Below the pieces are notes generated by a model. The model was not told where the DNA came from, did no database searches, and was given only the letters and a program-made list of their open reading frames with translations. A stretch of DNA of 64,000 nt from Chiloscyllium plagiosum (Eukaryota), in assembly GCF_004010195.1 (NCBI RefSeq), contig NC_057729.1, positions 29,349,142-29,413,141 of the forward strand, written 5' to 3'. This document shows, piece by piece, positions 3,747 to 54,870 of the stretch (position 1 is the first letter of the stretch; every line of letters starts with the position of its first letter). Made by a program: the position numbers and the translations under genes.

Positions 3747-3851
3747 CTGCAGATGGTTTTACTCGTACTTTATACCCCTGTCTGTTTCCATCAACCTCTT
3801 TCCATTTCATCTGCAGTCTATCTTCAGACAGAACAGTTAATTTCAATCTCC
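3747..3851 (-). CDS. COL20A1: Collagen XX alpha 1, second coding exon (start of first fibronectin type III domain): (G)RLKLTVLSEDRLQMKWKEVDGNRQGYKVRVKPSA(G)
   Basis: 105-bp phase1/phase1 exon. Acceptor tttgtacaattag|GG, donor GCAG|gtaagg. The peptide matches the COL20A1 N-terminal FN3 signature (human LRLAVLPEDRLQMKWRESEGSGLGYLVQVKPMAG, from memory) rather than COL14A1 or COL12A1. Confidence 0.93.
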
Positions 3852-4499
3852 CTAATTGTACAAACAAAATAATTAAAACAAAGTATTTCAAGTAAATATA
3901 TCAGCATGTTTAAAGATGTAAATAAATGATGAGGATTAAATGTTACTTGAACAACATATTAATATAGCATGAGGATGAGTCTTGAGTCCAGAAGTGTATC
4001 ATGTTGCAAAACTTGGGATTCTATTCACCTATTCCACACTGCACTTGTAGGACGGCTGGATAACTTGAAAGCTGCAAAGTAAATTGCTCCCATGTGAAAG
4101 TTAGTAAGTTTTCAGAGCCTGGGCATTAAGCTCCACCATTCATGATATGATGACAAAACTTAGCAAAAAAACAAAGATAATTTGGAAATGATAAAGTGCT
4201 TCAGAGGGCGGAGCAAGGGACAGAAAAGATGGGTCCTTAGCATCTCCTGTTCCCATGTTTGGATCAAACAGAACAGAATGGTGCAGCACACAAGTAGGTC
4301 AATCTGTGTATTGAGTCTGCATCAGGTTTTCTCCAAGATAAATGCAGTTTATCCTACCACCTTCTCCCTGCTCTGCTGTGTCTTAAACATTTTATCCAAT
4401 TTCCTTTCGAACACCAGTTTGCATCTTCTACTGCAAGTTGAGTGAGGGAGTGTATTCCAAAACCACACTTTATGTAAACGTTTTTCCTCATGTTGCTTT

Positions 4500-5245
4500 T
4501 ATAGAGTCATAGAGATGTACAGCACAGAAACAGACCCTTCGGTCCAACCCGTCCATGCCGACCAGATATCCCAACCCAATTTAGTCCCACCTGCCAGCAC
4601 CCGGCCCATATTCCTCCAAACCGTTCCTATTCATATACCCATCCAAATGCCTCTTAAATGTTGCAATTTTACTAGCCTTCACCACTTCCTCTGGCCGCTC
4701 ATTCCATACATGTACCACCCTCTGCAGGAAAAAGTTGCCCCTTAGGTCTCTTTTATACCTTTCCCCTCTCACCCTAAACCTATGCTGTCTAATTCTGGAC
4801 TCCCCCACCTCAGGGAAAAGACTTTGTCTATTTATCCTACAGATGCCCTCATGAGTTTGAAAACCTCTATAAGGTCACCCCTCAGCCTCCGACGCTCCAG
4901 GGAAAACAGCCCCAGCCTGTTCAGCCTCTCCCTATAGCTCAAATCCTCCAACCCTGGCAACATCCTTGTAAATCTTTTCTGAACTCTTTCAAGTTTTGCA
5001 ACATCTTTCTGATAGGAAGGAGACCAGAAATGCATGCAATATTCCAACATTGGCCTAATCAACATCCTGTACAGCTGCAACATGACCTCCCAACTCCTAT
5101 ACTCAATACTCTGACCAATAAAGGAAAGCACACCAAACGCCTTCTTCACTATCCTATCTTCCTGCGACTCCACTTTCAAGGAGCTATGAATCTGCACTCC
5201 AAGGTCTCTTTGTGCAGCAGCACTCCCTAGGACCTTACCATTAAG
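4500..5245 (-). mobile_element. CR1 LINE 3' end, relatively young
   Basis: Near-intact ORF2 C-terminus (LERVQKRFTRMLPGL...LFSLERRRLRGDLIEVFK...RGNFF.QRVV.VWN) plus 3' UTR and tail. Confidence 0.95.
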
Positions 5246-6503
5246 TTTGTTTTTTTTTGCCAGTCAACCTTTGAAATGGTCCGTCTAATTCTCAATCATA
5301 CCTTCAGCCACTGGAAGCATTTGTAATTCAGCCTATAATAGTATATACATTTATTCATGATTTTATTCAATACTGTCAAGTCCCCTTGTATTTTTTGGTT
5401 CTAAGGAGAATAATTCCTGTAGTTGCTCATCCCTGCAGCTACACCAGTAAAATTATTTTAAAGTCTCCACAAAGTCTTCAAACCCTTCTTCCACCAAAGA
5501 ATTGGAAACCATAATCTCAGGGGAACCAACTGTTTTATATGAGTTCAACAAAAACATTTCACTTTTGTGGTTTATGTTTCTATTTATAATGGCCATTGAA
5601 AGTACAGGTTCTAGCATGATGGCTTTACAACCATGGTATTGTCAAATAGTTGCATAATTTGTTCATATCATTTAAAAGATCAACTTCTTGGAAACTGGCA
5701 CTATAACAAAATATATTTTAGAGACTTTTCTTAGATTTGCTGGAGAGGCAATTTATTGGTTTTCAGGAGCTACTAATAGACCAATAGGTGGCAATTAGTG
5801 AGTAATGATTGGAATGAGGAAGGAAGTGGAATGAAATTGGGGAGGGGGAAGAGAGGAGGCAGCAGGGGAAAGAAGGAGGGTAGTGTAAGTGTAGAGCAGG
5901 AATGAAAAAGCTATAAATTGAGGGGAAAATAAAAAGAAAAACTGCAAGATGAGGAGGCTAAAAAGGAAAAGATAATTGTTTAAAATTTTCCATGAAAGAA
6001 TACTCAATTAACTGGGAACTGGGAAAACCTGATGTTACTGAGATGTTCCTTGTAAGTTAAAGTGAAATCTCCAGTTTAGGACTGCAACCGTAGGAAGAAA
6101 ATACAGTGATTGTTATTATGATGAACAATTTGAAAATTGTTAATCTTAAATCTGAGATAGAGATCTGAAAAGCAGTAAAAGAGTATTAGCTCCCTTATTA
6201 AAATGTTCCAGTTTTGGTTTGTTGTCACTTCACCAGTCTGTGAAGTCACCAGTCAGACCCTAACAACAAAAATATAAGAGAATAACAATACTGATTTGAT
6301 GAGAATGACCACTGAATTGGACTTGAGTGATCAGAATTAATATTCTACTCTCTGAGCGTCTATCTGACATCATGCTCTGGATAAGTGAGAATTTTATTCA
6401 ACTGAATATTGGTAAGAGAAATGATATTCTACTTTAAGCCTGGCCATAAGTTCAAAAGCTGAGAGACACACACTCAAATCCCTTCCAGGTGCTCACTCAG
6501 GTT

Positions 6504-7118
6504 TGTTATGCATCAGACCAGAATCCCTCAAAATATTTTAAGAAGGTAGCTCAGACTCTAACTTTTTCTTATCTTAAGGCAAATGTGAAGTGCTGTGTTC
6601 CAGAATGCAATGTTACCGATCAAACATTAAGCAAAAACACCATTTATTTAAACACCATACTTAAAATACAAACAAAACATAAAATAACAACTCTTTTGAA
6701 AAACTTAACTGAATAATAGACTCAGTAACGATTACTAATTAACTGTTCCAAAATAGTAATATCCCATGCACACACCCCTTGGTAAAAAGGCAAATTCAGA
6801 CACAGATTCTCACATGCAGATCTCTAATCCAAGAGGAAAAGGACATCAAGAGAAAATTCACAGAAAGTAACAGCCAGGAGACATTTACTGAAACTTTCAA
6901 TTCTGTTGAGACCCTAACAGCGCCTGATGCTCCTGAAAAAACAAAACTCAGAAATCTGGATCTGAGAGAGCAGGTCACATCTATTCAAGTTGTTAAAAGA
7001 AAGCTAAGGCTTTCCAAGCTGCTTACTCAGGTGGTCTTGGTAGACTGCTCGGTGTCTCTGTCTTACAATTTCTCTTTTAAAGGATGAAATAAGCTCTTAA
7101 AGCCACAGTATCATCACA
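6504..7118. mobile_element. Solo LTR (615 bp) with 4-bp target-site duplication
   Basis: Begins TGTTATG and ends CATCACA (TG...CA termini, 6/7-bp inverted). Flanked by GGTT at 6500-6503 and 7119-7122. Confidence 0.75.
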
Positions 7119-7404
7119 GGTTCCCCCAAACTTATATTCCATTCATACACATTCTTATCTAACTTTATCTTTCAATATCTTTCAATCTTCCCTTTCCTTC
7201 TTCCACAATCAGCAGAGCATTCAGTCATCTTTCTTCCGTATAGCCAAAATGTCTTCCTTTACCTTTTGCTTTCCTTGCCTTAAAACTTCTCTATACTTTA
7301 AAAGCTTCTTCTAATCCTCTTATTCACTCTTGCTTTTCGTCATGCAGATGAAACCCTACAATTTATTTCCAATGCAGACTAGTCAGCATTTCCAAAGAGG
7401 AAAT

Positions 7405-7738
7405 GGGCGGCACGGTGGCACAGTGGTTAGCACTGCTGCCTCACAGCGCCAGAGATCCGGGTTCAATTCCCGCCTCAGGCGACTGACTGTGTGGAGTTTG
7501 CACGTTCTCCCCGTGTCTGCGTGGGTTTCCTCCGGGTGCTCCGGTTTCCTCCCACAATCCAAAAGATGTGCAGGTCAGGTGAATTGGCTATGCTAAATTG
7601 CCCGTAGTGTTAGGTTAGGGGTAAATGTAGGGGTGGGGTATGGGTGGGTTGCGCTTCGGCGGGGCGGTGTGGACTTGTTGGGCCGAAGGGCCTGTTTCCA
7701 CACTGTAAGTAATCTAATCTAATCTAATCTAAAAAAAA
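7405..7738 (+). mobile_element. Full-length young HE1/V-SINE-type SINE
   Basis: tRNA-like head with A/B boxes (TGGCACAGTGG, GGTTCAATTCC), central GTGTGGAGTTTGCACGTTCTCCCCGTGTCTGCGTGGGTTTCC block, retained CpGs and an (AATCT)n tail. Confidence 0.92.
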
Positions 7739-10197
7739 AGGAGTCATTCCAGATTCAAAGCATTAACTTATTTTCTTTCTACAGATGCAGTCAGAACTGC
7801 TGAGTTTCTTGATTACTTTGTTTTTATTCCAGACCTATAATAGCTTAGATTTTGCATTAAAAATTACAGTAAGGCTATTAGTGATCAACATTCTGGTATA
7901 AATCGGGCAGAAAGTTCCAATATCCGCATATGGGTACTGACCTGTTCCTCCAGTAACTCCATTGTAGCAGCAGACATGTATGGTTACCTTCCTCTCAATT
8001 TTCTTTCAAATGCAAACATGCTTGTTTGGTGGAATCTTCCCAGCCCCTGAACAGCGGGGACACTTTGGGAAAATCATGAAATTGGGTGAGATATCCAGCA
8101 AGAACCTTTTCAATACTGAGAGCAAAATGTCTCATTTTCCAATTAAGTGTTGATTAGCAAGTCAAGAATCTCACTTGTGAGCATGGAAAGACTTCTTCTC
8201 TTCGATTATCATTATGAATAGCTTCATTATAATCTAATCTTGCCTCGTTAATACACAGACTCCCATTCTGTGTTCAATGGAAACTAGATGCTGAGAATTC
8301 CCAAGTTAGAGCAGTTACCTGGTGACTCCAGCTCGCTGCTTGCTCCTCCAAAGCTCCATCTTGAACATCTAGCATCAGTATATCAGAGCACATTTCATGA
8401 GCAGTGACTGCATGAATCACATGTCTATGAACACTGGTACCCGACATGTACGGATCTCACCATAAGCATTATTCACATCTCTGATCCACTTCTGCACTTC
8501 AATCCAGAACTTCAGAGTGCATTGGGTCCTCTCATTGGAATGTTGCCAGGACATTTAGAGCACCCAGCTCATGGACTGGATCAGTGTACATCTCAGGGAT
8601 CCTCATTTTCTCTCTTAGCGCTCACTCAATTTGTGCCCACTTTGATGCTCACAGCATCCCTGCCTTACCATTTTTTTGTGCTTCACCCTCTCAGCCAGAG
8701 CTTAAAGGCTCACAGTATTGCAGTGTTGCTTTGTCTTTCAGCTCAGTCACAAAGACAGGCAGCTTGTAATAGTTATCAGCAGTCACCAGTCAAGGGAGTA
8801 AACACATTGCTGTATGGCAATGTGCGACATCACACCTACACCATATGCCAACTATGTACACATACTTCACATGTGCTTGCCATATCTCAGAGTCTAAGGG
8901 GATTCATCCTTAGTCAAATCAAAGGAGATACCCTTCAGACAGGAGGGTCCTGGCTCAGTAATCCAAGGGCAGTACAGTGACTGCGGCATAGTCAGTTGAC
9001 TGCTCAGGGTGACCAGAGTCAGGGGCTTCAAACCTCTATAGCCTGGGCAATGGACCATGGTCAGCCCTCTGGATCCAGTGTAATCAGTCCAGGGAGTCAT
9101 TGGAAGTCAGCTGGAGAGCTATACAGAGATCAGTCATGTGTCCGGTCAGTAACCATCTGGGCTTTAAGGGCATGGCCAGTCCTGAGTTCATCCGCTACAA
9201 CTCAAGGGAGGCCACTGCTATGGGACGGAAGCTGGGGAAATTAAATTGTGGGAATTGGACGCAGCATGCTGGGATAAAAAGAGAGGATTATAAGGTGGGG
9301 GGGGCAACTCAATATATAGGGAGAGACAATAGAGCACAGAAGGGAAAGAGGTAATGTACGAGTAGGGAGGAGGATCACCAACAGGTCACAGCAGTCTGAC
9401 TTCCGGAAGGGCCTCAATGCGCTACTAGATCTGACCCGTTTACTTGATATGCCTGGGACTGGGAAGGGGCAGGGTTGGGAGTAGGACATTTAATGGAAGG
9501 ACGGGTGGGGACTTGGAGAAGTTCAAAGCCTATTGTGTTTATGAGGAGATCTACCATGAAAAGAATGTGTACTTTTGGGGGTTTAATCAATAATCAGAGG
9601 GTGAGTCTGAGACCACTGCTCAAGGAGCAACCACTGTTTCTGCCATTGTGCTGTAAATAGCAACAGCAACAGCATAGTGGAATTGAGGATGGGTGCCACC
9701 TTATGTGAAGTGGTGGGGGTAAGTGCCTTGCAGTGGAACCTGTTGGTCTTGGAGTTTTGGTTGGGTCACTCTGGGAGTGTTCATGTCGGGAGAGTCTAGT
9801 CATGCTGAGCATGTCCTGCCCAGTGACAGATGCAACATCCTTGGTTTGACCTTCCGCAAGGCTGAGGATCGCAGGCAGTGAGGGAGAGGTAGTGGTGGAA
9901 GGCTGAGCCACCTCCCAAGTGTCCTGAGGAGACTTCAAGGAGGCCTGTATGTGACTCCTTCTCCAGCTGCATGCCTACTTGGCACCACTCTGTCTCCGGG
10001 AAGAGACACCTGGAGTGAGGGTCTAGGACCCACACCCCTTATTGCCTTGCTGTTGGTGCTAAGCATATCTAGCAGACTTTGAGGCTGCTGGACCTAGCTG
10101 GACCTACCAGCCGCACCCTATCCATGAAGGCAGCCAGACGATCACATGCCCAAGGCCACAGGGTCTCAACAGTGTTACTGCAATACTGCAACTTTAA

Positions 10198-10452
10198 GGG
10201 GAGCATGGTGGCTCAGTGGTTAGCACTGCTGCCTCACAGCGCAAGGGACCTGAGTTCGATTCCAGCTTTGGGCGACTGTCTGTGTGGAGCTTGGACATTC
10301 TCCCATGTCTGCATGGGATTCCGCTGGGTGCTCTGGTTTCCTCCCACAATCAAAAGATGTGCAGGTCAGGTGCATTGTGGTGGATTACTCTTCAGAGGGT
10401 CAGTGTGCACTTGTTGGGCCAAATGGCCGGTTTCCACACTGTAGGAAATCTT
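10198..10452 (+). mobile_element. HE1/V-SINE copy (diverged, internally deleted)
   Basis: Same head and central block as 7405-7738. Confidence 0.88.
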
Positions 10453-10707
10453 TATGTCAGGTTGCCTGCTGCTCCTGTGTCTGCAAGTGCAGGCATTGCA
10501 ATTGCAAATCGCTGACACCATGGGGTCCTCACTTGCCTAGCACTAATCAAATTCCACGTCTCCAGCAGTCCTCGAATGTCAGTGACCTGGGGCGTTTCTT
10601 CCTCAGCCAGCTGCAAGACATGGCAGTAACATTCTCACCAACAAATGCTCTAATCTGGCTAATGTATCCTCTGAGACCTCAGGAACTGTGTTAGGCAGCT
10701 TTGCAGG

Positions 10708-10790
10708 TTCAAAACGTATGGCGCTGGAAAAGCGCAGCACCTGAGGAGTAGGAAAGTCAACATTTCGGGCATAAGCCCTTCATCAGGATT
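10708..10790 (-). mobile_element. PLE terminal-repeat (pLTR) fragment with hammerhead core
   Basis: Reverse complement contains CTGATGA-A-GGGC-TTAT-GCCC-GAAA. Homologous to the 15670, 19840, 38460 and 47491 elements. Confidence 0.7.
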
Positions 10791-13190: not shown

Positions 13191-13284
13191 GCTATTATGA
13201 TTCATATACAATATAAGTTTGTATACCTACAGTGAATGATACATAAAAGGCTAAGGACTTTATGGCTTTGAAACTTGTATTTTG

Positions 13285-13850: not shown

Positions 13851-14149
13851 TTATGAATTTCCTGGAGAGTTTTTTTTCCTGTACATATGAAAAAGGCAGG
13901 AGAACAATTTGGCGAAAGATATTTTGGCAAAATGGTCCTAGAATTAAGCTCAAGGCCAGGTAGTTAGGTGATAGACAGACCAAGGACCTGATCCTAAACA
14001 AAAACCATTATACATGGCTTGGGTGGCAAGCTGAGCTGGAGGCTGAATTAAAGACAGCATGTCACATCAGGGAAGAAAAAAAAAACTCCTCACACAATCT
14101 ATTCCAGCTAATACACCTGTTATTTGCATTTCTTTGCACAGGATCTTCT

Positions 14150-15865: not shown

Positions 15866-16089
15866 CTGATTTCTTGAGGTTGCAGGGTACATCCATGGAT
15901 CTTAATGGAAGATCAATGCAAAGAAAGGAGCCCTGATTGACAGCATACCAGACCTAGATGTAGCTCTAACAGCAGCTGTGAGGCTAAGCAAAACTGTAGC
16001 TGAGAGCTTGGGGGAGGTATGCATGTTAACTGCCAGTTACATGGAATTATCCTCAAAAGGCAAAGTAACTTTATTCCTCAAACGAGGCA

Positions 16090-16488
16090 TGGAGTGTCAG
16101 AGGCTGAGGGGTGACCTTATAGAGGTTTATAAAATCATGAGGGGCATGAATAGGATAAATAGACAAAGTCTCTTCCCTGGGGTGGGGGAGTCCAGGACTA
16201 GAGGGCATAGGTTTAGGGTGAGAGGGGAAAGATATAAAAGAGATCTAAGGGGCAACTTTTTCGCAGAGGGTGGTACATGTATGGAATAAGCTGCCAGAAG
16301 AAGTGGTGGATGCTGGTGCAATTACAACATTTAAAAGGCATCTGGATCTGTATATGAACAGGACGGGTTTGGAGGGATGTGGGCCAGGTACCGGCAGGTT
16401 GGACTAGACTAGGCTAGGCTATCTGGTCAGCATGGGTGAGTTGGACTGAAGGGTCTGTTTCCATGCTGTATATCTCAATGACTCTATG
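16090..16488 (+). mobile_element. CR1 LINE 3' end
   Basis: RLRGDLIEVYKIMRG...RGHRFRVRGERYKRDLRGNFF plus 3' UTR. Confidence 0.93.
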
Positions 16489-18722: not shown

Positions 18723-18798
18723 CTTGTCCCTCTGCTTGACTGATCAGATGAAGCAGCATGATTACAGAGGTAAGAACACAGCTCTTTTCCAAGTTCAT
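18723..18798 (-). CDS. COL20A1: Collagen XX alpha 1, first coding exon (signal peptide MNLEKSCVLTSVIMLLHLISQAEGQ-G); whole exon 18723-18823 including 25 nt of 5' UTR
   Basis: GCC-ATG Kozak context, hydrophobic core and A-x-G cleavage motif. Acceptor tttccttcctatatatag|G at 18823. Phase-1 donor CAAG|gtactt joins the 3851 exon in frame (G+GG = Gly). Confidence 0.85.
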
Positions 18799-23469: not shown

Positions 23470-25800
23470 AGCAAGAAAAAGTCTCATCCACAATGTTGAG
23501 AAAAATGTTTGATTTTCCCCTTAAAGTTTCAGCAGCTTATGAGAATCTCACCAGTAAGCATTATGATCTTATTTCTCATTTATCTGCATCTCATTATTTG
23601 TAATTCTTACCTTATTTAAATGCAGCTCACAGTCTCCTATGCAGTGAAGAACTAAGTGTTGCCAATGCCTGAGATAAAAGTCAGAGTGGCTACCTGATGG
23701 ATGAAGTTCAGTAGTTGTTTCTCTAGAACTCCATGTTAACCAACATTACGCTCCATGAGAATCAAGCACCTCCAACCACTGACCATGGATGTCAACAGCA
23801 GCGAAACAACCACCTCACCACATCAGTTTAGCCAGTCTTGGATTTCAACACTTCACTACTGCACTTTGGAGCTCACTAACACTTTATTGTGCAATGTTCC
23901 TGTCTATTCACTTTGCATGCAGGAACACAAACCCATCTCATGCATCTGTGCAGGATACATCTTAGGGCTCTTAGCTCACATCCTTGGCACCCACTCACAT
24001 TGAGCTTACTTGGATGCTCATACAATTTCGGTCATGCCTTTTAGAGCATTTCATTGTAAACTTTCGTGAGACAAAGCCGGGCAGTTTGTCGTGGTAGCCA
24101 GCACTGAAGTCAAATGGGTGGACATGATGGTGTATGGCATTGTGTGACGTCATGGCACACCTACAGCATATGCCAGCAACTTATGCAACTAACACATTGC
24201 ATGCTTTGACCAAATAGCCATGTCTGAAGGGGGAGCTACGGTCAATCAGGGTGCATGGCAATATTCAGTCAGGGGCATCATCCGAGCTCAGTCAATGGAT
24301 TGGCCACAGTCACTCAGGCATTTGGTGTGATCAGGTCCTAGGGATCGGTGTCTTTCTAATCTGGAGCATCAGTCACAGTCATTTGCTCCAGGTCAAGCCC
24401 TACCTGTCCAAGGAGTACAGGTCATAGAATCATAAAAGTTGTACGGCATAGAAACAGACATTTGATCCAACTTGTCCATGTCGACCAGATATCCTAAATT
24501 AATTGAGTCCCATTTGCCAGTAATTGGCCGATATCCCTCTAAACACTTCATGTTTATACATCCAGATGCCTGTTAATATTGTAATTGTATTAGCCTCCAT
24601 CACTTTTTCTGGCAGTTCATTCCATATATGCATCACTGTCTGTGTGAAAAAGTTGCCCCTTACGTCCTTTTTGAATCTATCCCTTCTCACCTGAAACCTA
24701 TGCCCTCTAATTTTGGACTCCCTTAGCCCGGGGAAAAGATCTTGATTGTTCACTCTATCCACGCCCCTCATGATTTTATAAACCTCCAAAAGGTCACCCC
24801 TCAGCTTCCAATGCTCCAAAGAAAATACCCCTGCCTATTCAACTTCCCCTACTTCCATCAAGGAGCTGAGGGGCAAGGGATTGGATCATGCTAGTTGGGA
24901 CTGTCCTCATAAGTCAGTCCAGGATGTGGGCCACGATTAGTCCTGGGATTTGGCAGTAGACATCAATAGGGTTATCAGGGACAGTACATGCTGGTTCAGA
25001 GAAAGTGGGAAACTCAAGTATGGGTATTGGAGGTGTCCTGCTGGGGGAAAATAAGAGTGAATGGGGCTCAACTCCAAGTATATTGGTGAGATCTAATAGA
25101 AGATAGAAAGGCACAGGTACTGCATGAGGTGATTTTTAAAAGGGCAACCACTCTCACTTCACAATGGACAGTGGATAATGACAGTGGGCATACCAATGCA
25201 TGGGACAAAATAGACATATTGATTGTCAAATAAAAGGGTTGTACAGTAACATGTGAAGCCTCAAAGCTGTTGGGGTGTCACGGACAGGTATACAAAAGGC
25301 ATAATGAAGAGTGGACAGCAATGTTGACTTTCAAGTGGAGCCTGGATTATACGCTCAGGAGCACGACCCATATACCATCTTCTACCAAGTTTCATGTGCA
25401 CATTTAGAATGAAAGTAACTGCCAGCACATTCACAGAAGGCAGAATGATTTCTTTTTTTTGTCTACAGAGGTGGAGTGGCCATGTTTGCACAGAGGCAGA
25501 TAGAAAGTTAATTGAGCATGAGACAACACCCACCCTTAAATGAGTGTGTACAATCTTGTAAAACACGCAGGTATAATCAAACTTTGCAACAAGAGAAGTG
25601 TGCAATCTGCTTAACTCTTAACTGCTCTCTGAAATGCACAAAAGGGGGAAAAAAATGAATGAAATTGGCATTGATGAAGCACTGGAAATGAAAATGGCAA
25701 AACGTCAACCCTGCAAAGTACTTCTCACTGATATCTTGGGGGAGTTCACCAAAATTGGGAGAGCTAGCTCACAGCAATTCACTGATTCATACCTTACACA
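23470..25800. mobile_element. Second copy of the ancient Harbinger-like relic, interrupted by CR1
   Basis: Shares blocks with 8040-9240 (gtatggca.tgtg.gac.tca...cacctaca.catatgcca; gaatctcac...agcat). Confidence 0.4.
24420..24850 (-). mobile_element. CR1 LINE 3' end
   Basis: KLRGDLLEVYKIMRG...RGNFFTQ...WNELP plus 3' UTR. Confidence 0.92.
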
Positions 25801-39593: not shown

Positions 39594-40128
39594 AGAGTCA
39601 TAGAGATATACAGCACAGAAACAGTCCCTTCAGTCCAACTTGTCCATGCCGACCGGATATCCCAAATTAATATAGCCCCATTTGCCAGCACCTGGCCTCT
39701 ATTCCTCTGTACCCTTCCAATTCATATACCCATCCAGATGCCTTTTGAATGCTGTAATTGTACCAGCCTCCACCACTCCCTCTGGCAGCTCATTCGTTGC
39801 ACACACCCCCCTCTGAATGAAAAAGGTGCCCCTGAGGTCCCTTTTAAATTTGCACCCCCACCCCCACCCCACAGCACCCCCCTCTAACTCTGGACACCCC
39901 ATCCCAAGGAAAAGGCCTTATGTATTTACCGTATCCATGCTTCATGATTTTATAAGATCACCCCTCAGCCTCTGGCGCACGAGGGGAAACAGCCCCAGTC
40001 TGTTTGGCCTCTCGCTATCACTCAAACCCCTGGCAACGTCATTGTAAATCTTTTCTGAACCCTTTCAAGCTTCACAACATCCGTCTGATAGGAGGGAGGC
40101 CAGAATTGTACACAATATTCCAAAAATT
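39594..40128 (-). mobile_element. CR1 LINE 3' end
   Basis: KRDLRGTFF...NELPEGVVEAGTITAFKRHLDGYM plus 3' UTR. Confidence 0.9.
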
Positions 40129-40379
40129 GCAATGGTTCTGTTGGGTAATGGCAATTTAATTCCAAAATGTTAATTCCTTCATGAGAAGGGAATAATTGGC
40201 AATGTAGCTGTGAGAGGTCCCTTGTGGAAGAGTGAAGAACTGAGTGAGAGAACTTTCCATTATGATGGAGAGCAACAGAGTTGATACTGAGTCTGGGGAC
40301 TTAAATCTAAAGCAAGGAAATTATAATGGCAGAAGCACGAACAGGCTGCAACAAATGAGGGAACATTATTGAAAGAAAT

Positions 40380-42562
40380 GACAAACATTTAGATAGCACC
40401 TGGAGGAACTGCAATAGTTGTCCCTTAAACACAAAAGATGGCCCAGCCATGGCTAACAAGGGACATTATGGTAGTACCGGATCCAAAGAAGTGGTGTACA
40501 AATTAGCTAAAAAATAAAGCAGCAGATCTGAAGACTGGAAGCACTTCAGATTTCAACAAAGGGATTGATTAAAAAGGGGAAAATGGGGTATGTGAAGACA
40601 AAAAAAGATTGGTGAAAACAATTACAGTTAGAAACAGGCAAAGTTCTCATGTGGAACAAAGAGATGGCAGACCAATTAACCACATATGTTGCTTCTATCA
40701 TCACAAAGGAGGGCACAAGTAACATCCCCAAAATGTTGGGGAACACATGGTCCATTGAGAGCAGGACTGAAGGAACTGAGTTGTTGTAGGAAAATGGTGT
40801 TAGAGAAATTGATGGGATTAAAAGGTTACAAATCCCCAGCACCTGGTAATCCACACCCCAGACTATAGCCCGAGATGCATAATGCAGTTGTCGAATTTGG
40901 GCTGATCTTAGGACTTCTACACTTAATGGTAAGGTCTTTGGGAGTATTGCTTAACAAAGAAACCTTGGAGTCCAGGTTCATAGCTCCTTGAAAGTACATT
41001 AGGAAGTGCGGCAGACATAGTGGATTCATGAGTTACAATATTCCAAAATTTTCTGGACATGAGAAAGATTCATTGAGTTTATTTAAGACTGAGATAGGTA
41101 GGTTGTTGATTGTCAAGGTGATCAAAAGTTATGGGGAGAAAGCGGGAGAATGGAGTTGAGAAAATTGTCAGCCATGATTGACCAGTTAGTTTAACACCTG
41201 TTGTTGGGAAGATGTTCGAGCCAATTATCAAGGAAGCAGTATCAGGATGTTTTGAAAGTCAAAACTCCATCCATCAGAGTCAGCATGGTTTAATGAAGGG
41301 CAAATCAGGTTTGACTACATTCTTCAAAGATATAACATGCAAAATGAATAATGGAGATCCTGTAGATGTAATATATCTGGCCTTCCAGAAGGCATTTGCT
41401 GAAGTGCCACTCAAAAGGTTAATTTGTGAAGTTGGATCATATGGGATTTGGGGTGATTTATCAGCTTCAATAGGTGACTAGCTGATGGGCAGAAGGCAGA
41501 CAGTCCAAATCGATGGCTTTTTTCTGGATGGCNNNNNNNNNNNNNNNNNNNNNNNNNNNNNNNNNNNNNNNNNNNNNNNNNNNNNNNNNNNNNNNNNNNN
41601 NNNNNNNNNNNNNNNNNNNNNNNNNNNNNNNNNNNNNNNNNNNNNNNNNNNNNNNNNNNNNNNNNNNNNNNNNNNNNNNNNNNNNNNNNNNNNNNNNNNN
41701 NNNNNNNNNNNNNNNNNNNNNNNNNNNNNNNNNNNNNNNNNNNNNNNNNNNNNNNNNNNNNNNNNNNNNNNNNNNNNNNNNNNNNNNNNNNNNNNNNNNN
41801 NNNNNNNNNNNNNNNNNNNNNNNNNNNNNNNNNNNNNNNNNNNNNNNNNNNNNNNNNNNNNNNNNNNNNNNNNNNNGTGGCCTATTATCTAAATGGGGAG
41901 AGACTTTGGGGTGCTCTGGTGCAGAGGGACATGGGTATCCTCATTAATGAGTCACAGAAAACTAGCATGCAGGTACAGTAGATAAGAAAGAAAGTGAATG
42001 CAACATTGGCTTTTATAGCTAAAGAAATAGAATATAAAAGGTAAGGAAATGTTGCTGCAACTATACATGGCATTGCTGAGGCCGCACCTGGAGGATTGTG
42101 CCCAGTTTAGACCCTTATTTCCCCTCATATGGTTATGGTAGGGGATTTAACTTTCCAAACATAGACTGGGACTGCCATAGGTTTAAGGATTTCGATGGAG
42201 AGGAATTTAAGTGTGTACAAGAAAATCTTCTGATTCAGCATGTGGATGTACCTACTAGAGATGGTGCAAAACTTGACCTACTCTTGGGAAATAAGGCAGC
42301 TGACGGAGGTGTCAGTGGGAGAGCACTTTGGGCCAGTGGCCATAATTCTATTAGTTTTAAAATAGTGATGGAAAAGGATAGACCAGTTCTAAATTGGAGG
42401 AAGCCTAATTTTGACAGTATTAGGCAAGAACTTTCAAAAACTGACTGGGGGCAGATGTTCGCAGATAAAGGGACGGCTGCAAAATGGGAAGCCTTCAGAA
42501 ATGAGATAATAAGGAGTCCAGAGACAGTATATTTCTGTTCAGGTGAAAGGAAAGTCTGATAG
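40380..42562 (+). mobile_element. Cluster of CR1 ORF2 fragments (EN and RT) spanning an assembly gap
   Basis: SQHGLMKGKSGLT...VDVIYLAFQKAF (RT); FNFPNIDW...PTRDGAKLDLLLGN (APE endonuclease). A short inverted CR1 piece lies at ~40870-40995. Confidence 0.88.
41533..41876. other. Assembly gap (N run)
   Basis: Run of N. Confidence 1.
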
Positions 42563-46900: not shown

Positions 46901-46939
46901 CTCATTGAAACTTTGCCCATGCAGTCGGTTAATACACAT

Positions 46940-47058
46940 GATTTGGAGATGCCGGTGTTGGACTGGTTAAAAATCACACAACACCAGGTTATCGTCCAAC
47001 AGGTTTAATTGGAAGCACACTAACTTTCGGAGCGACGCTCCTTCATCAGGTGATAGTG
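46940..47058 (-). mobile_element. pLTR-like fragment of a further PLE family with an intact hammerhead core
   Basis: Reverse complement reads ...CAC-CTGATGA-A-GGAGC-GTC-GCTCC-GAAAG-TTA-GTG... at ~47018-47052, with a perfect 5-bp stem II. Confidence 0.7.
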
Positions 47059-47059
47059 G

Positions 47060-47440
47060 CAATTTGTTAGGGAGGGAGTGCTAGAATTTTGCCCCAGTGA
47101 CAGCGAGGGAATGGCAATATATTTTCAATATATGCAAGGATGATGTGAGGCTTGGAGGAATTTGCAGATGGATGGTGCTCTCGTGCATTGGCTGTCCCTT
47201 GTTCTTCTCAGTGATAGAAATTTCAGGCATAGAAGGTACTTTAAAAGGAGCTTTGGTGTGTTGCTGCAGTTCATCTTGTATACGCCACTCAATTTTGCCA
47301 TAACATATGTTGTGCCAGTCAAGCTAGCTGCTCTCTCTTGGATGATGTTGAGCTTCTTTCAAATTGTTGGAACTGCACTCTTCCAGACAAGTGGAGAGTA
47401 TGCCATCACATTCCTGACTTGGGTCTTACAGATGGGGCAA
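47060..47440 (-). mobile_element. CR1/L2-clade LINE 3' fragment
   Basis: Homologous to 55650-56130 and 63720-64000. Confidence 0.7.
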
Positions 47441-47490
47441 GGTTTTGAGATCAAGAGGTCCATACGTACTTTACCTTTACATTTCATTGT

Positions 47491-48065
47491 TTAGATCAGA
47501 GTGGTGCTGGAAAAGCATAGAAGGTCAGGCAGCATCCGAGGAACAGGAAAATCAATGTTTCAGGCAAAAGCCCTTCATCAGGAATAGAGGCAGGAAGCCT
47601 CCAGAGTGGAGAGATATATGGGGTGGGGGGGGTGGAGGTGGCTGGGGAGAAGGTAGCAAAGAGTACAATAAATGAATGGGGTTGGNNNNNNNNNNNNNNN
47701 NNNNNNNNNNNNNNNNNNNNNNNNNNNNNNNNNNNNNNNNNNNNNNNNNNNNNNNNNNNNNNNNNNNNNNNNNNNNNNNNNNNNNNNNNNNNNNNNNNNN
47801 NNNNNNNNNNNNNNNNNNNNNNNNNCTCTCTGACCTATCACCTTCATCCCCACCCCCATTCACCTACTGTACTCTTAGTTACCTCTCCCCAGCCACCCCC
47901 ACTTATCTCTCCACCCTGGAGGCTTCCTGCCTCTATTCCTGATGAAGGGCTTTTGCCTGAAACATCGATTTTCCTGCTCCTCGGATCCTGCCTGACCTGC
48001 TGTGCTTTTCCAGCACCACTCTGATCTAAACTCTGGTTTCCAGCATCTGCAGTCCTCACTTTTGC
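47491..48065 (+). mobile_element. Young fold-back PLE-derived element with a central gap (47686-47825)
   Basis: Near-perfect ~190-bp inverted arms. 17-bp TSD CCTTTACATTTCATTGT at 47474-47490 and 48066-48082. Hammerhead core CTGATGAAGGGCTTTTGCCTGAAACATC at 47939-47966, mirrored at ~47554-47581. Confidence 0.88.
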
Positions 48066-51000
48066 CCTTTACATTTCATTGTCAGGAATCCCTCTGAAAA
48101 TGTTTCAAGCAAACATTGGTTACATTTTTTCCTTTTTAATTACTTAATCGATTGCTGATTTTGCTAATTAATTCCACATTTCAAAACTGCAACTTGCTAT
48201 GAAACAAATAGAAACATTTCAGCATTTTACCATTTGTGACTTTAGTACAAACCCTCTGCTTCCAATGAGAGCTGACCAGAAGAGGTGCTAAAATTGCACC
48301 TGACCATATGCTCCCAATCCTTGACAGCATTGTAACACACATCATTTCAAAAGACAGATGGGCCATTACACAAGGGCCTTGCCCAAGACAGGTGAGAACG
48401 GCCAATGAAATTCCAAAATCCTGGTCTAATTTCAATCAGATTACAATAATGTTGCAAATATTAGGTTGGTGCATGATGCCAGCCTCACTAAGGAAACCTA
48501 GAATCCTGGAGTAGCATATTTAAGATTCTCAAATGCTTTGGGAAGGTAAATATTGATGCATTATTTTCATTAGTTGAGGAACCAGCAACTGGGGCATACA
48601 AGTTAGATAAAATTATAAATATAAACATTGCCTTAGGATGATCACCAGGTTAGGGAGATTGGGAGCATTATTTTCACATAAAATTAGAATATAAAATGCT
48701 TCATCACAATTTGCTATTGAGGCAAAAAAAGTAACTTAATAGGGATTTGGATAAGCATTTGTGAAGAGAAATTTGGAAGAATAGGATTGAAAAGTGAAGA
48801 AATAAGGTTAGGATATAGAACTTCAGTTGAAGAATTATTAATGCTATTATAACTTAAATCAATTAAAAAGTTTTAATCAGAATTAGGTACATTTTTTATT
48901 TGGTAAGGCTGTTAAAGCTTATATAATTAAGACATGGAAAATAGAACTAAGATACCGATCAACCAGGATCTACTTGATAAGGGGTCAGGTTCAGACGTTT
49001 GAATGTTGACCTCTTGCTTCTATGCTTCAATACAGTTGGAAGCACAGCAGATCAAATGAATAACACACATGCCAATATTCTAGCACTGGGTCTCAGAAGC
49101 AAAAGTTAGCAGATGGATTTGAGGCCACCTCCTACCAGCATTTGCAGGTAGTAAGGCAAGAGTAGAGCTCACCGTCCAATTTTAACTCCCTCTCTTTGCT
49201 GTCTAATCAATTTTAGGTGGGGTAATAAAAGAAAATTCATCTCTTAAACTCTTCTGTTGAGTTTTATTTGTGGTTATTTGTTGCACTTAAAATGATCAGA
49301 CCAAGGAGAACTTCATTGTAATATAAATTGGACATGATCCATTAGGATGAAGTTCACTATAATAAATGACCATTTGCTGACAGATATTTTTCTTACTTTG
49401 TGCTAGGAATGTAATCATGCCTCTGATAAACTAATTTAACTTTTCTATAACTAATGAAATCCTGTCAATAATCTGCACCAAGGTGAAAAAAGCACTGAAA
49501 CTGAACATGAGCTCCATAATCATTTTTAGATTCCATTTTATTTAACACATTCAGTGGTACAAATTTACAACTCATCTGCAAAAATTTCAACAGAATTATT
49601 TCAGAAATCTTATTATTGGTGAATTTAGTCATTTAGCAATGATTGTACAGATCTGAAAATTGTCAAGGCTATTGTCAACTATATTGCTGCTTTAGTATCA
49701 ATGAATGGTGACTTTTGGTTCATGGTAATACAAATCTGGTTTTGTACTCAGATGCCAGGTCCGAAACTGCCTCCTGGGAAGACAACTGCAAAACAGTGTA
49801 AAACCCTTGCCAAGAATCAATTTCATATTGCTTAGGCTTTATAGCCTAGAACTGAAAAATGTTCTGCTTAATCCATTAGATCTCTTCAGCCCTTTGTACG
49901 TAGTTTTGACTCATTTAAGATGACTTCTTTCATGGTGTCTTATCAGAAAAGTAGCCAATGGAGGATCAGGCCTCTCTTTGGCTCTAATTCCCTGACTCCA
50001 GTCAATATTCCATGGCATAAATGTGAGACCTATTGGTTGTGAACAACAGTCTTTTGTGTCTAATGTTATCTAATGTTGTGAAATGTTAAAAAACAAATTA
50101 ATTAATTGACAGTATTAAAACTACATTTGGTGCATAACACTTAAAATAATAATTTAAACAATGATTATGAATGTATATTCCCTACCTCATAACATTGACC
50201 ACACTTAAAACACACTTTATTGACAATAAAGTGATTAGGGACATCCTGAGGTTGTGAAAGTTACAATATAAATGTAAATCCTTTTTTTAAAGAAAAAGCT
50301 CTTGATTAGTATGACCTTCACCATACTTTATGGACATTTAAGTTAGCACTTAGATCTGTTGCAAACTTGTCTTTTTACCTTAATTCAGAAAACTGTAAAT
50401 TAAAAATAAAACACTGCAGATACTTAAAATCAGAAATAAAAACAGAAAACATTGAGCATATTTAGCCAGTCAGGCAGCACTTGTGGACTGTTATAATCTC
50501 TATACAAATCAGTAACATTCAGAAAGATATTCAAATATCCGGTGACTGAGTGGAAGAAATATATGACAAGATTTTAAGTCTTATGGCCTCTGCTATAAGA
50601 AATAAATTAAAAGCAATATTAACTAAACACTACTCAGTACCCAACTGATAATCTAATTCATGAAATGTTTCCCATTTAACTGTTAAAGCAGTTGAAAATT
50701 CTCACCAGATCCATTTATTCTGTCCCTTAAGTGGATACTTAATTCTCCAGAAGCAACCCAAAGCTATTCTCAAAACTCGAAGGCTGACTTCCTTTTGCAT
50801 TTCAAGCTGGTTAACTTCTAATCCCAGAACCGACCTCCACAGTGAAGCAGCAGTTAGAGAATCTTCTCTCTAGCTGAACTAGTGACTCTTACAAACTCAT
50901 TTAAATCCTCATGAAGCCAGTGCCTTCATTCTTTTCATGAACTCCCATATGCATTTTGGCGGTGACTGACAAGGCCAGCATTTTCACCGCTGATGGAGGA

Positions 51001-51389
51001 TGAGCTGCCTCTCTTTCTGTACTCCCTCATACAGACTCTTGCAGACTGTCCCACCTGTGAAATTCAGGGGATAACTTAAAGAAATTCCTATTACCCAATA
51101 CCACAATGTCCTCCGATGTACTCTAACTCTCTCAAAGACAATCCTCCATTGCAGCAAGAATCGCATGAATCTTGCAGCCATACAAATGCCAATTAGCTAC
51201 ATGACCTCTAACTTGAAACTAAATAAACTATTTAAAATAAAATCATTTCACAAAACTTGACATTCCCAATATCTTCCTGAATTTTAGCACTAACAGGCTA
51301 CCACCAAATAATGATTTGGAAACTTAACCCACAAATCAAATATGACATCAGATGTGAATTATTTCAGACTGTTTTCGGGGAAATGGATG

Positions 51390-51900
51390 GATTTGGTAGC
51401 TAGAAAATGGAATTTCGAGGAAGAAACTAAATTTTTGTACTCAACCTTCCCAATATTTAAATGGAGTAAATGTTTGCTCATCCAGTACTGTACGTCAGGT
51501 AAGCAGTCTGCTAACAGTGAAAGTGGAAGACTCAAGAGAGTGAGGGAGAACTGAATGCCGGAGAACATGTGAAAACTATGAAGCATCCCTACAGAGCTGC
51601 AAATGAATGGAAATTAGGAGAAAGCAAAGATAGAACCATGAGAGATACCAGAGGTTACGATGTACGAGTGGCTGAGAAACATTGCAAGAGATACTCTGGC
51701 TGCGATATGACAGATTAGAATGCAATTGATGAAAATATGCCATCCAACTGTATGACAGGGAGAGAGGTGTTGGTGAAGGACCGTGTGGTCAACTGTGTCA
51801 AATGCTACACACAGATCAAGAAGGATGGTGAGGAATAGTTTACCTTTGTCACAGTCAAATGGGCAATCATTTGTGACTTTGAAACCAACTATGTAGGTGT
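51390..51900 (-). mobile_element. Old L2 LINE RT remnant
   Basis: Reverse complement of ~51785-51828 encodes LLDLCVAFDTVDH (L2 consensus LLDLSAAFDTVDH). Also YWMSKHLLHLNIGK.E in ORF 51359..51586. Confidence 0.75.
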
Positions 51901-52119
51901 GATGAACTGGTCAGAAACTTGTTTGAAAAGATTCAATTCAATGTAAGGGATGTAAACATTAGAGTTCCATGCAAGATGAAGGTGGAATTGGAAGAGGCAG
52001 ATAAGTTGGATATAGGATGGTAGTTTGCAAATACATAAAGATCAATAGTTTTTTTCTAAGAACACTATTAATAACAGATTCAGAGAAGGAAAACACTTCG
52101 AAAGAAAATAATTAACTAT

Positions 52120-52732
52120 ATTAGTCATAGAGTCATAGCAATGTATAGCATGGAAACAGACCCTTCAGTCCAACTCAACCATGCTGACAGGATACTCTGA
52201 GTTAATCTAGTCCCATTTGCCAGATTTGGCCCATATCCATCCAAACCCTTCCTATTCAAATACCAATCCAGATGCCTTTTGAATGTTGTAATTGTAGCAG
52301 CCTTCATAACTTGTTCTGGCAGCTTATTCCATACATGCACCACATTGAAAAAATTGCCCCTTAGATCTCTTTCGAATCTTTCCCCTCTCACCTTAAACCT
52401 ATCCTCTCTAGTTTTGGATTCCTCTACCCTGGAGAAAAACCTTGAAATATTCACCCTATCCATGCCCCTCATGATTTCATAAACCCCTATATGACCACCC
52501 CTCATCCTCCAATGCTCCAGGGAAAATAGACCCAGCCTATTCAGCCTCTCCCTCTGGCTCAAACCATCCAACCAGGGAGACTAGAATTGAACGCAGCATT
52601 CCAAAAATGGCCTAATCAATTTCCTATATAGTCACAACACGACCTCCCAACTCATATGTTCAGTGCAGTGATCAATAAATGCCTTCTTCACTACACTGTC
52701 CGCCTGTGACTCCACTTTCAAAAAACTATGAA
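52120..52732 (-). mobile_element. CR1 LINE 3' end
   Basis: RERLNRLGLFSLE...RDLRGNFF...VWNKLP plus 3' UTR. Confidence 0.92.
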
Positions 52733-54518
52733 GCTAGTTCACCCAAAGGTGACTAATAAGAAGACCAGTAAGGGAGGTTAGCTGTTCTGCAGTTTGGTGG
52801 GAATAGGGTCAAGGGAGCAGGCAATGTGTCTGACGGATATGCTTCACGAAGACATGAAGGGAAATGCAAGAGAAAGTAGAGAAAGATGGAAATTCAGAAC
52901 TAGGTAAGTGATGAACTTGAGGAGGTCTGACCCAGTGAGTTGGTAAAAGGGAGTGAGGCAGCACCTACAGCTGATTGGATGCTTTGATCTTAGTGACAAA
53001 GAGATCCATGAGCTCATCGCAGTTATTCTTGGTGGTGAGGATGTAGGAGATGGGGAGACAGGAAACATCAACTATCTTTCTCTCCATAGATGCTGCCTGA
53101 TCTGCTGGTATGTTTCCAGCATTTTCTGCCTTTGTAACTTGCATAGACATGATTGCAATATTTCCCTTTACATTTTCCCTTTTCTAATCTCGAATGAATG
53201 TAGCTTGGCTTTATGGATCAAATATCTTTTTTCTCCAAAAGCTACTAGAGGTTTTAGGCATTTGGCAATTTAATATAGAAAACAGCAAAAAAGACTGTCA
53301 TAATTTGGCACTTATCTCACTCATTAAAGAGTTACTTACATTATTGCCAAATTCTAAAATATTATAAATACCTTTGTACTTTCCATGAGTCAGTGTTTCT
53401 ATACAATGGCACTTTAAAATTGCTGAATAAATTTTGCCCGAGAGCACATGTATTGTGTGAAATGTCTTTGGTGGCAGCTTGAGTTTCTTTCTCATCAACG
53501 AATTGGGATGTGACCCGCAGAAGTTTACATCAGTGAAAAGAACATTTTATAAAAGAAAACATACAAGCTGCCTTTGACCAGTAGTCTTATATCTAGGAAG
53601 ATAGAGAGGCATCTTTGTAACCATAACTATTCCTTTTACAGGATTGTTAAGCAGGGCAATGGAAATCCTAATGTAGCACCAAATGAGTGCTCTGTGAAGG
53701 GAGGGTAAAGCACTGCTGGTTTTGGAAGAAACTAGTTTAAACCCAATTCTGCTGGTTCCATGTTCAGATAAGCATGGATTGTTTTCAATGGTGACATGGA
53801 AACTTGGACAAGAGCCAGCTTTTCATTTTAGTAGGGAATCGTGACCTTGGAGCTTCCGATCTGGCCTGGCTCCAGCCTTCTTTCAGTGGGAGGTCATTTT
53901 GTTTCTTGTTAAGTGTCACATTCCAATAGAGATTACTGGACAGGCTTTTAAAACAGTATAAAGGTATACAAAGAGGTTTAATTGGATCTGTAAGAACTGC
54001 AACTCTAATTCCTTACCACTTTAAAAATGTTGGTAAATCCTTTGAACAATGTCAGTATAACCTACATCTTTATCGAAGGTTAAAAAAGATTCATAAATAT
54101 ACAATAAAGACAGATCAAATGTCTGTAAAGTTTCTCAGCAAGTGGATATTAGCTTAGAAATTACCTTATGTGCTGACAAATACTTCACACAATCACATGA
54201 CAGAACAAATGAGAAATATCATGCGAACAGTGAAGCCTTTGTCTACTCCAGGTACATTGTCTCAAATATGGTATGGATTTTGGATCACCAACTAACTCCT
54301 TCACACTGGCGTCACTAAAACAGCTAATGTCGCTCCCCTAAAAACAACTGAGAATATTGTAATCAGAATGTCCTCAGCAGTGGAACAAATCGTTTTGTGT
54401 CCAGAGGATAGGGAGGACCAAGGAGAGACACATTTTACAGTGCTACAATGGATTTGGGTTTTATGTGTGCACAATGCTTGCTGACTCTTGTCCTCTGGGA
54501 TCAGCCCAAAATGTCCTC

Positions 54519-54524
54519 TTTATT
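54519..54524 (-). terminator. Candidate polyadenylation signal (AATAAA) of the DEPTOR-like gene
   Basis: First minus-strand AATAAA I found downstream of the stop, ~220 nt away. More distal signals exist (e.g. 50216-50221). Confidence 0.3.
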
Positions 54525-54744
54525 TCACATGCTTACTCTATTTCAGGGGCTGCGACCAAGGGAAAATATCTGAATTTTTTCAAAATTCCATTTGATTCGA
54601 TATGATTTTTTGCATACCAGATTTGAGACACTATACCTACATTTTCATGAATAATGATTTCTAGCTTAAAGTATTTGAAGGCATTTGCTTTCTGAGAATA
54701 GTTGTGAAAATCAACCAGCTTATTGCTCAATTGAACACATCTCC

Positions 54745-54870
54745 TCATTCAATTGCTTCCATAACTTCCATCACTAGAGTGCGGGGTCCAGTCATGATAA
54801 TGTTGCTGACTGTTTTGTAGTCCAAATTCATGACATGCCTGCTGTTCACAGAGACAACAAACTGTCTGAC
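54745..54870 (-). CDS. DEPTOR: DEPTOR-family (DEP domain-containing mTOR-interacting protein-like) terminal coding exon, PDZ C-terminus: VRQFVVSVNSRHVMNLDYKTVSNIIMTGPRTLVMEVMEAIE*
   Basis: Acceptor tcttctgttttcctacag|GTC (phase 0), 41 codons plus TGA. Closely resembles the human DEPTOR C-terminus VCQFVVSVNGLNVLHVDYRTVSNLILTGPRTIVMEVMEELEC (from memory). Absent from the ORF track because it is short. Orthologue versus paralogue is unresolved. Confidence 0.88.
   Translation of the reverse strand, partial: VRQFVVSVNSRHVMNLDYKTVSNIIMTGPRTLVMEVMEAIE

What the first reader, a model, noticed from the sequence alone, without database searches (positions are those of the whole stretch)
3747..54870. 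DEPTOR-like gene directly upstream of COL20A1: a probable retained second DEPTOR (ohnologue)
Seen: a terminal exon encoding a DEPTOR-type PDZ C-terminus (54870-54745) lies on the same strand, upstream of COL20A1-type exons, with no other gene recognised between them. Established: human DEPTOR sits immediately upstream of COL14A1 on chr8q24 in the same orientation; COL20A1 (chr20q13) is a FACIT paralogue of COL14A1; humans have a single DEPTOR. Inference: this locus is the sister block from vertebrate whole-genome duplication, so the gene is a DEPTOR paralogue lost from the human lineage rather than DEPTOR itself. Sharks would then have a second candidate mTOR-binding regulator.
Basis: partly seen in the sequence, partly recalled or inferred. 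Interest (0 to 1): 0.8.

Follow-up and report, generated by a model that had tools for sequence, protein, structure and literature searches.

The report
Second DEPTOR gene lacking destruction tag
This shark has an intact, apparently transcribed second copy of DEPTOR, a brake on the mTOR growth kinase; the copy is shared by many jawed vertebrates but not listed at this position in humans, and it keeps the mTOR-binding surfaces while lacking the tag that lets mTOR destroy ordinary DEPTOR.

Summary
Confirmed and extended. Window 54870-54745 (-) is the last exon of an intact 9-exon, 397-aa DEP-DEP-PDZ gene. Contigs from three studies look spliced at this exon and carry a 5.2-kb 3' UTR. The genome has a second locus on C4, head-to-head with DSCC1, 67% identical, which groups with human DEPTOR. 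The window gene lies between ARFGAP1 and COL20A1; a human gene list shows only MIR4326 there. It is not a shark speciality. Its clade (100/99) includes sturgeon, bichir, teleosts, coelacanth, amphibians, reptiles, birds and platypus; echidna and a partial opossum model also belong. A shark-only duplication is rejected (p=0.0002). Databases already hold it as 'DEPTOR-like' or si:dkeyp-97e7.9, but no paper on it turned up in my searches. New here: the mTOR-contact patches are kept, while the beta-TrCP degron is absent from 43 of 43 paralogue linkers and present in 94 of 100 canonical ones. Loss in placentals is likely but not directly tested.

The parts
54745..54870 (-). Exon 9 (last coding exon, 41 codons + TGA; C-terminal half of the PDZ domain) of the DEPTOR paralogue. 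Exons 1-8 lie outside the window at G000:C20:29,479,838-29,431,312.
49512..54744 (-). 3' UTR of about 5.2 kb, interrupted by repeats near 51.7-52.9 kb
   Evidence: contigs of three runs cover 52456/52506/52515-54872 and 49512/49522/49636-52170 at depth 18-25
49537..49542 (-). AATAAA poly(A) signal, 15-25 nt before the contig ends of two runs
   Evidence: function inferred
54871..64000 (-). 3' part of intron 8 (27.3 kb in all)
   Evidence: exon 8 ends at C20:29,431,312; depth 0-4 in 56.6-58.5 kb
18723..18798 (-). COL20A1 first coding exon (ATG, signal peptide), GT donor; an AG acceptor 25 nt upstream suggests a non-coding first exon
   Evidence: (92% to P0164 residues 1-26)
3747..3851 (-). COL20A1 exon encoding the first half of the N-terminal FN3 domain; the gene continues below the window to about C20:29.21 Mb

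Best explanation
The gene is a functional ohnologue of DEPTOR ('DEPTOR2'; DEPTOR-like / si:dkeyp-97e7.9 in databases). It arose when an ancestral DEPTOR-FACIT collagen block was doubled in a vertebrate genome duplication before the shark/bony-fish split. One copy gave DEPTOR and COL14A1, the other ARFGAP1-DEPTOR2-COL20A1. It was kept in most jawed vertebrates and probably lost in placental mammals. SHOWN: intact gene, separate clade, gene order, transcript-like contigs. INFERRED mechanism (about 0.65): like DEPTOR, it docks on the mTOR FAT domain through its PDZ domain and the linker stretch before it, and damps Rheb-driven activation through the tandem DEP domains. INFERRED difference (about 0.55): it lacks the SSGY[FY]S beta-TrCP degron and the S265/S293/S299-Pro sites, so active mTOR should not trigger its destruction. 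It would be a more stable brake, set by transcription rather than by the mTOR-driven degradation loop.
For: Nine coding exons with AG/GT ends and the same phases (2,1,2,1,1,1,0,0) at both loci, 1194 nt, no internal stop. 67% identity between the two shark proteins; 93% to the catshark DEPTOR-like protein. Careful tree of 45 rows: 21-row paralogue clade 100/99; C4 gene with human in the canonical clade 81/84. All chondrichthyan copies as one clade rejected, p-AU 0.00018. ARFGAP1 exons 61-63 kb upstream on the same strand (34 of 36 residues match human ARFGAP1). Adjacency to COL20A1 recurs elsewhere: gene models fusing DEP exons to COL20A1 in garter snake (P0277) and opossum (P0287, 81% to platypus COL20A1 helix); consecutive locus tags in cobra; equal contig lengths for both genes in two skates and bichir. 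KCNQ and NKAIN members on C3, C4, C20, C27. Contact patches named in PMC8439649 and PMC8439657 are kept against a mammalian DEPTOR: 304-308 5/5, 309-325 15/17, 338-342 5/5, 358-362 4/5, DEP1 68/84 against 69/84 for the shark's canonical copy. Strict degron 0 of 43 vs 94 of 100; S293-Pro 0 of 43 vs 100 of 100 by the pattern used.
Against: No binding or stability data. The exact interface residues mutated in PMC8439649 are in a figure supplement I did not see. DEP2 (44/75 vs 55/75) and PDZ (62/82 vs 73/82) are more diverged, and S358 is G in 14 of 16 paralogues. Canonical DEPTOR is 13.2 Mb from COL14A1 here, with no collagen in the 180 kb downstream, so the sister-block argument leans on the human DEPTOR-COL14A1 adjacency, which I recall and did not check. 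KCNQ2-like and NKAIN4-like genes are 29 and 2 Mb away: linkage is at chromosome level. The canonical clade has only 81/84 support, and lamprey joining it is not rejected (p 0.37), so first versus second duplication round is open. The collagen tree could not be rooted; in the first VWA exon chicken COL20A1 is closer to the C4 collagen (60%) than to the C20 one (53%). Degron rows are not independent (many birds and isoforms). In the column view 4 of 21 paralogue rows do keep S/T-Pro at 293, and a wide pattern finds G-centred look-alikes in the linkers of 4 of 13 informative paralogue lineages.
Confidence: 0.85

Rival explanations
1. Same age and orthology, but made by a segmental duplication of the DEPTOR-collagen block in the jawed-vertebrate stem, not by whole-genome duplication.
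For: Only two copies were found. The flanking genes beyond the collagen differ (DSCC1 on C4, ARFGAP1 on C20). The tree dates the event but cannot give its scale.
Against: C4 and C20 share KCNQ and NKAIN paralogues with C3 and C27. PMC6354393 (passages) treats the human chromosome 8 and 20 regions around CHRNA2/CHRNA4 as a 2R paralogon; its chromosome 8 gene is not shown there to be the DEPTOR region.
Confidence: 0.07
2. The paralogue is a real protein that no longer acts mainly on mTOR; it uses its DEP domains and free PDZ groove as a membrane scaffold for other partners.
For: Loss of most mTOR phosphorylation sites (S265, S286/287/291, S299). More divergent DEP2 and PDZ C-terminal half. Long branches in frogs and teleosts. 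Apparent dispensability in placentals.
Against: The FAT-groove stretch 304-308 is identical to human in the five paralogues displayed, and the PDZ contact loops are nearly so. DEP1, the main DEPt-mTOR surface, is as conserved as in the canonical copy.
Confidence: 0.25
3. It binds mTOR and is still turned over on mTOR activation, through a non-consensus degron or another ligase.
For: The linker stays serine-rich (9-19 Ser in 13 informative lineages), keeps S244-Pro and mostly the RRSS basic motif. beta-TrCP tolerates variant degrons (recalled).
Against: No conserved replacement motif: the segment varies freely among paralogues while it is nearly fixed in canonical DEPTOR.
Confidence: 0.3
4. A shark-specific duplicate, a pseudogene, or the only DEPTOR moved next to COL20A1.
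For: RefSeq-type labels are confusing: several paralogue members are named plain 'DEPTOR' and shark COL20A1 is named 'collagen XIV-like'.
Against: Two complete loci; p-AU 0.00018 against a chondrichthyan-only clade; open frame; transcript-like contigs; both copies in platypus, penguins, caecilians, coelacanth and paddlefish.
Confidence: 0.01

Closest known systems
Human DEPTOR (DEPDC6; PDB 7OWG, 7PE7-7PEC)
   Same: DEP-DEP-linker-PDZ layout; best PDB match of the catshark orthologue over its whole length (E 1.7e-180); mTOR-contact patches conserved.
   Different: Separate clade; no SSGYFS degron, no S265-Pro or S299-Pro, S293-Pro mostly lost; sits between ARFGAP1 and COL20A1, not beside DSCC1.
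Database entries 'DEPTOR-like' / si:dkeyp-97e7.9 (e.g. XP_028927160.1 platypus, XP_038606660.1 echidna, H3AWB2 coelacanth, H2MFW2 medaka)
   Same: These are the orthologues: same clade, same missing degron.
   Different: Automatic annotations only, some named plain DEPTOR. No paper found that describes them.
Canonical DEPTOR of the same shark (G000:C4:111,904,102-111,829,751)
   Same: Nine exons, identical phases, 397 aa, 67% identity.
   Different: Carries the degron and priming sites, lies head-to-head with DSCC1, and is 13.2 Mb from its collagen partner.
PREX1/PREX2 DEP-DEP-PDZ module
   Same: Same domain order; next-best PDB family (E about 1e-35).
   Different: Part of 1,600-residue exchange factors; far more distant than DEPTOR.

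Membership tests
DEPTOR family | Tandem DEP domains, linker, C-terminal PDZ in about 400 aa | tested here: met
   Gene model; Pfam on the 93%-identical catshark orthologue: 2 DEP stretches + PDZ
DEPTOR family | Shared exon structure with canonical DEPTOR | tested here: met
   9 coding exons, same phases, 7 of 9 exons of equal length at both shark loci
DEPTOR family | Conserved mTOR-contact surfaces (linker 304-325, PDZ 338-342 and 358-362, DEP1) | tested here: met
   5/5, 15/17, 5/5, 4/5, 68/84 against a mammalian DEPTOR; regions
DEPTOR family | Binds and regulates mTORC1/mTORC2 | not testable with these tools
Canonical DEPTOR orthologues | Nests with human DEPTOR in the tree | tested here: not met
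   Separate 100/99 clade; the C4 gene is the orthologue
Canonical DEPTOR orthologues | beta-TrCP phosphodegron SSGY[FY]S with S293/S299 priming sites | tested here: not met
   0 of 43 vs 94 of 100; site-by-site view; motif defined
Vertebrate whole-genome-duplication ohnologues | Duplication after the amphioxus split and before the shark/bony-vertebrate split | tested here: met
Vertebrate whole-genome-duplication ohnologues | Copies on paralogous chromosomes | tested here: met
   KCNQ and NKAIN on C3, C4, C20, C27; COL14/COL20-type pair on C4/C20. Only three families tested.
Vertebrate whole-genome-duplication ohnologues | Local sister blocks: DEPTOR adjacent to COL14A1 as DEPTOR2 is to COL20A1 | tested here: inconclusive
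   13.2 Mb apart in this assembly; human adjacency recalled only
Vertebrate whole-genome-duplication ohnologues | Assignment to the first or second round | tested here: inconclusive
   Lamprey outside both at 85/89; lamprey + canonical not rejected, p 0.37; lamprey + paralogue p 0.016
COL20A1 (downstream gene) | Closer to named COL20A1 than the genome's other collagen of this layout is; next to ARFGAP1 | tested here: met
   First FN3 exon 83% to chicken COL20A1 vs 36% for the C4 gene; 260/401 to Callorhinchus COL20A1 vs 177/401 to the C4 gene; ARFGAP1 upstream
COL20A1 (downstream gene) | Rooted tree with COL12A1 and named COL14A1 | tested here: inconclusive
   No named COL14A1 or COL12A1 was held; the two outgroup candidates were other VWA genes

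The most novel reading that the evidence does not exclude
Most jawed vertebrates, including chicken-like birds, frogs and teleost fishes, run two DEPTORs: the known one that active mTOR destroys through beta-TrCP, and an unstudied, naturally degron-free one that acts as a lasting brake or buffer on mTORC1/2. Placental mammals lost the second. The mutual-antagonism switch described in human cells would then be only half of the ancestral circuit.
Probability: 0.4. Interest if true: 0.65.

Novelty: new variant of a known kind. Interest (0 to 1): 0.45.

Why it matters
DEPTOR is treated in the papers read here as a single vertebrate gene whose level mTOR controls through a degron. A second, conserved copy without that degron is a natural experiment that separates binding from turnover. 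It could also mask or confuse deptor knock-outs and expression studies in fish, frogs and birds, where several databases name the paralogue plain 'DEPTOR'. The finding is modest as biology so far: hidden ohnologues lost in placentals are a common class, the gene is already annotated, and its function is inferred from sequence.

Tried and rejected
PDB search with the collagen FN3 exon alone gave nothing useful. A whole-protein collagen search of the genome was swamped by VWA repeats. Rooting the collagen tree failed: C3:40.2 Mb and C3:42.17 Mb are other VWA genes (vitrin/cochlin-like and COL21A1-like by my recalled reading); a four-VWA gene at C9:6.1-6.3 Mb may be COL12A1 but was not read. PTGIS and SLC35C2, fused to COL20A1 in bichir and wrasse models, were not found in 100 kb upstream of the gene, 80 kb downstream of COL20A1, or the window. 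The run search listed no holder on record as RNA; that blank is no evidence. The one raw RNA run laid (X17, about 2% read) gave depth of about 2 or less over the exon and UTR, inconclusive. A first exon assembly had two boundaries off by one base, corrected. Three canonical fragments scored closer to the window gene by single-HSP BLAST but carry the canonical linker. In one search the skate and coelacanth rows were not captured properly and are left out of counts. Ten paper searches found no account of a DEPTOR paralogue; the library lacks most subscription journals. Earlier-findings look-ups were empty. The Atlas search only returned DEPTOR clusters. No structure or complex was predicted.
Full report
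OBSERVATION. The window is G000:C20:29,349,142-29,413,141. Its collagen exons are 88-100% identical to a Chiloscyllium punctatum protein over most exons, so this is probably a related bamboo shark. On the minus strand, 54870-54745 follows a pyrimidine tract and AG and encodes 41 residues and a stop. The peptide matches human DEPTOR 369-408 at E 2.3e-12. Collagen exons lie downstream on the same strand at 18798-18723 and 3851-3747. Of 350 open frames of 40 aa or more between them I scanned the 150 longest; 3 gave sub-cut-off Pfam hits, two of them reverse-transcriptase fragments. No intervening gene was found.

THE GENE. The peptide finds two loci in the genome. The catshark orthologue maps all nine exons on C20 and eight on C4; the first C4 exon was found in fetched DNA. 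Both genes have nine coding exons with AG/GT ends, the same phases, 1194 nt and 397 residues without an internal stop. They are 67% identical. I laid 4 of 24 listed runs. In three contig sets from three studies, none on record as RNA, a 3.5-kb contig follows the genome from about 52.5 kb to 54872 and has 1,122-1,205 further letters that lie elsewhere. Exons 1-8 sum to 1,068 nt, so splicing to them is inferred from the length; those letters were not shown. Depth is 18-26 down to about 49,512, next to an AATAAA at 49542-49537, and 0-4 in the intron at 56.6-58.5 kb. The raw single-cell run was inconclusive.

WHICH COPY IS WHICH. The C4 last exon is 100% identical to shark proteins named DEPTOR; the window exon is 98% identical to a whale shark 'DEPTOR-like'. 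In a careful tree of 45 selected rows the window gene sits in a 21-row clade at 100/99 with skates, sturgeon, paddlefish, bichir, four teleosts, coelacanth, caecilians, two long-branched frogs, lizard, alligator, birds and platypus. The C4 gene sits with human in a 19-row clade at 81/84. Lamprey is outside both at 85/89. No canonical teleost, gar or hagfish row was included. Holding all chondrichthyan copies together is rejected (p 0.00018); lamprey with the canonical clade is not (p 0.37); the opossum fragment joins platypus. Echidna shares the platypus cluster. None of the named paralogue rows is placental, but the search that found most of them was seeded by one shark exon, so this is weak evidence.

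GENE ORDER. On C20 the order is ARFGAP1, the paralogue, COL20A1, all on the minus strand. A human 20q13.33 gene list reads NKAIN4, FLJ16779, ARFGAP1, MIR4326, COL20A1, CHRNA4 (PMC5024517, one passage; PMC4243240, one passage, lists ARFGAP1 and COL20A1 together). Remnants in human were not searched. Adjacency to COL20A1 recurs in garter snake and opossum (fused gene models) and cobra (consecutive tags). On C4, DEPTOR is head-to-head with DSCC1. A COL14A1-type gene runs from about 98.62 Mb towards MTBP at 98.27 Mb; that name rests on recalled sequence and the MTBP neighbour, as no named COL14A1 was held. It is 13.2 Mb from DEPTOR on the same strand, and no collagen lies in the 180 kb below DEPTOR. 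KCNQ and NKAIN members lie on C3, C4, C20 and C27, the pattern expected of a four-fold paralogon. PMC6354393 (passages) calls the human 8/20 CHRNA2/CHRNA4 regions a 2R paralogon. The collagen's identity as COL20A1 rests on the first FN3 exon (83% to chicken COL20A1 vs 36% for the C4 gene), on 260/401 identity to Callorhinchus COL20A1 and on ARFGAP1. One VWA exon points the other way (53% vs 60%), and the tree could not be rooted.

HOW IT LIKELY WORKS. PMC8439649 (abstract, Results, Discussion) describes a PDZ-plus-linker anchor on the mTOR FAT domain and inhibition by the DEP tandem, mainly DEP1. PMC8439657 (passages and one section) maps PDZ residues 338-342 and 358-362. Against a 409-aa mammalian DEPTOR the window gene keeps 304-308 at 5/5, 309-325 at 15/17, 338-342 at 5/5, 358-362 at 4/5 and DEP1 at 68/84, equal to the shark's canonical copy; DEP2 and the PDZ as a whole are more diverged. 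mTOR binding is therefore inferred, about 0.65. PMC5237168 (passages) gives the degradation route: mTOR primes S293 and S299, the degron SSGYFS is phosphorylated, and beta-TrCP binds. Of 193 proteins assigned by best reference, 61 fell to the paralogue and 132 to the canonical group; 43 and 100 had a readable linker. The strict degron was in 0 of 43 and 94 of 100. Rows are redundant, but the contrast holds lineage by lineage: 15 of 15 jawed canonical lineages have it, and no paralogue lineage does, though 4 of 13 informative ones have G-centred look-alikes under a wide pattern. S265-Pro and S299-Pro are absent from all 21 paralogue rows aligned; S244-Pro is kept; four rows keep S/T-Pro at 293. 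The lamprey linker has a partial look-alike, which hints at loss in the paralogue rather than gain in DEPTOR. Escape from mTOR-driven turnover is inferred, about 0.55. The figure supplement listing the interface mutants was not seen and bears on the binding claim.

KNOWN OR NEW. The gene works like DEPTOR by prediction and belongs to the family, but it is not the DEPTOR orthologue. It is already in databases as DEPTOR-like, si:dkeyp-97e7.9 or plain DEPTOR. Six searches aimed at a paralogue (listings only) found no paper on it, in a library that lacks most subscription journals. The name 'DEPTOR2' is mine.

VERDICT. Observation confirmed; interpretation supported with a wider range and one failed local check. 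A real, apparently undescribed ohnologue that differs in a defining regulatory motif. Interest 0.45.

Noticed in passing
G000:C4:111.83 Mb vs 98.62 Mb: Canonical DEPTOR and the COL14A1-type gene are 13.2 Mb apart on the same strand; they are neighbours in human (recalled). Rearrangement or scaffolding error.
   Followed up: partly
window 18798-3747 and P0164, P0184: Shark COL20A1 is about 1,860 aa with two VWA stretches, against about 1,470 aa in birds; probably why it is labelled 'collagen XIV-like' in many sharks.
   Followed up: partly
P0287 (Gracilinanus agilis, XP_044515581.1): Opossum gene model joins paralogue exons 2-5 to COL20A1 triple-helix exons. Annotation across a gap or a real deletion; bears on when the gene was lost.
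   Followed up: partly
P0078, P0125, P0130, P0146, P0143, P0289: Six canonical DEPTOR rows (four named sheep or yak, two unnamed) have Gly at degron position 287.
   Followed up: no
P0443, P0446, P0448: Amphioxus, abalone and Lingula have full-length DEP-DEP-PDZ proteins annotated as DEPTOR-like, although the papers read call DEPTOR vertebrate-specific.
   Followed up: partly
P0291, P0449: Frog members of the paralogue clade evolve very fast (branches 1.0 and 0.5).
   Followed up: no
L011:1507-1611 (exon 8): This shark has Leu-Ser where catshark, skate and most paralogues have Gly-Arg just after the PDZ 338-342 loop.
   Followed up: no
window 4600-5260, 16000-16360, 24500-24830, 39700-40300, 41180-42560, 52130-52580: Degenerate LINE-type reverse-transcriptase fragments; SINE-like repeats at about 46.9-48.1 kb draw very high contig depth.
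   Followed up: no
G000:C9:6.12-6.26 Mb: Several VWA exons close to COL14A1 in sequence; possibly COL12A1, not read.
   Followed up: no
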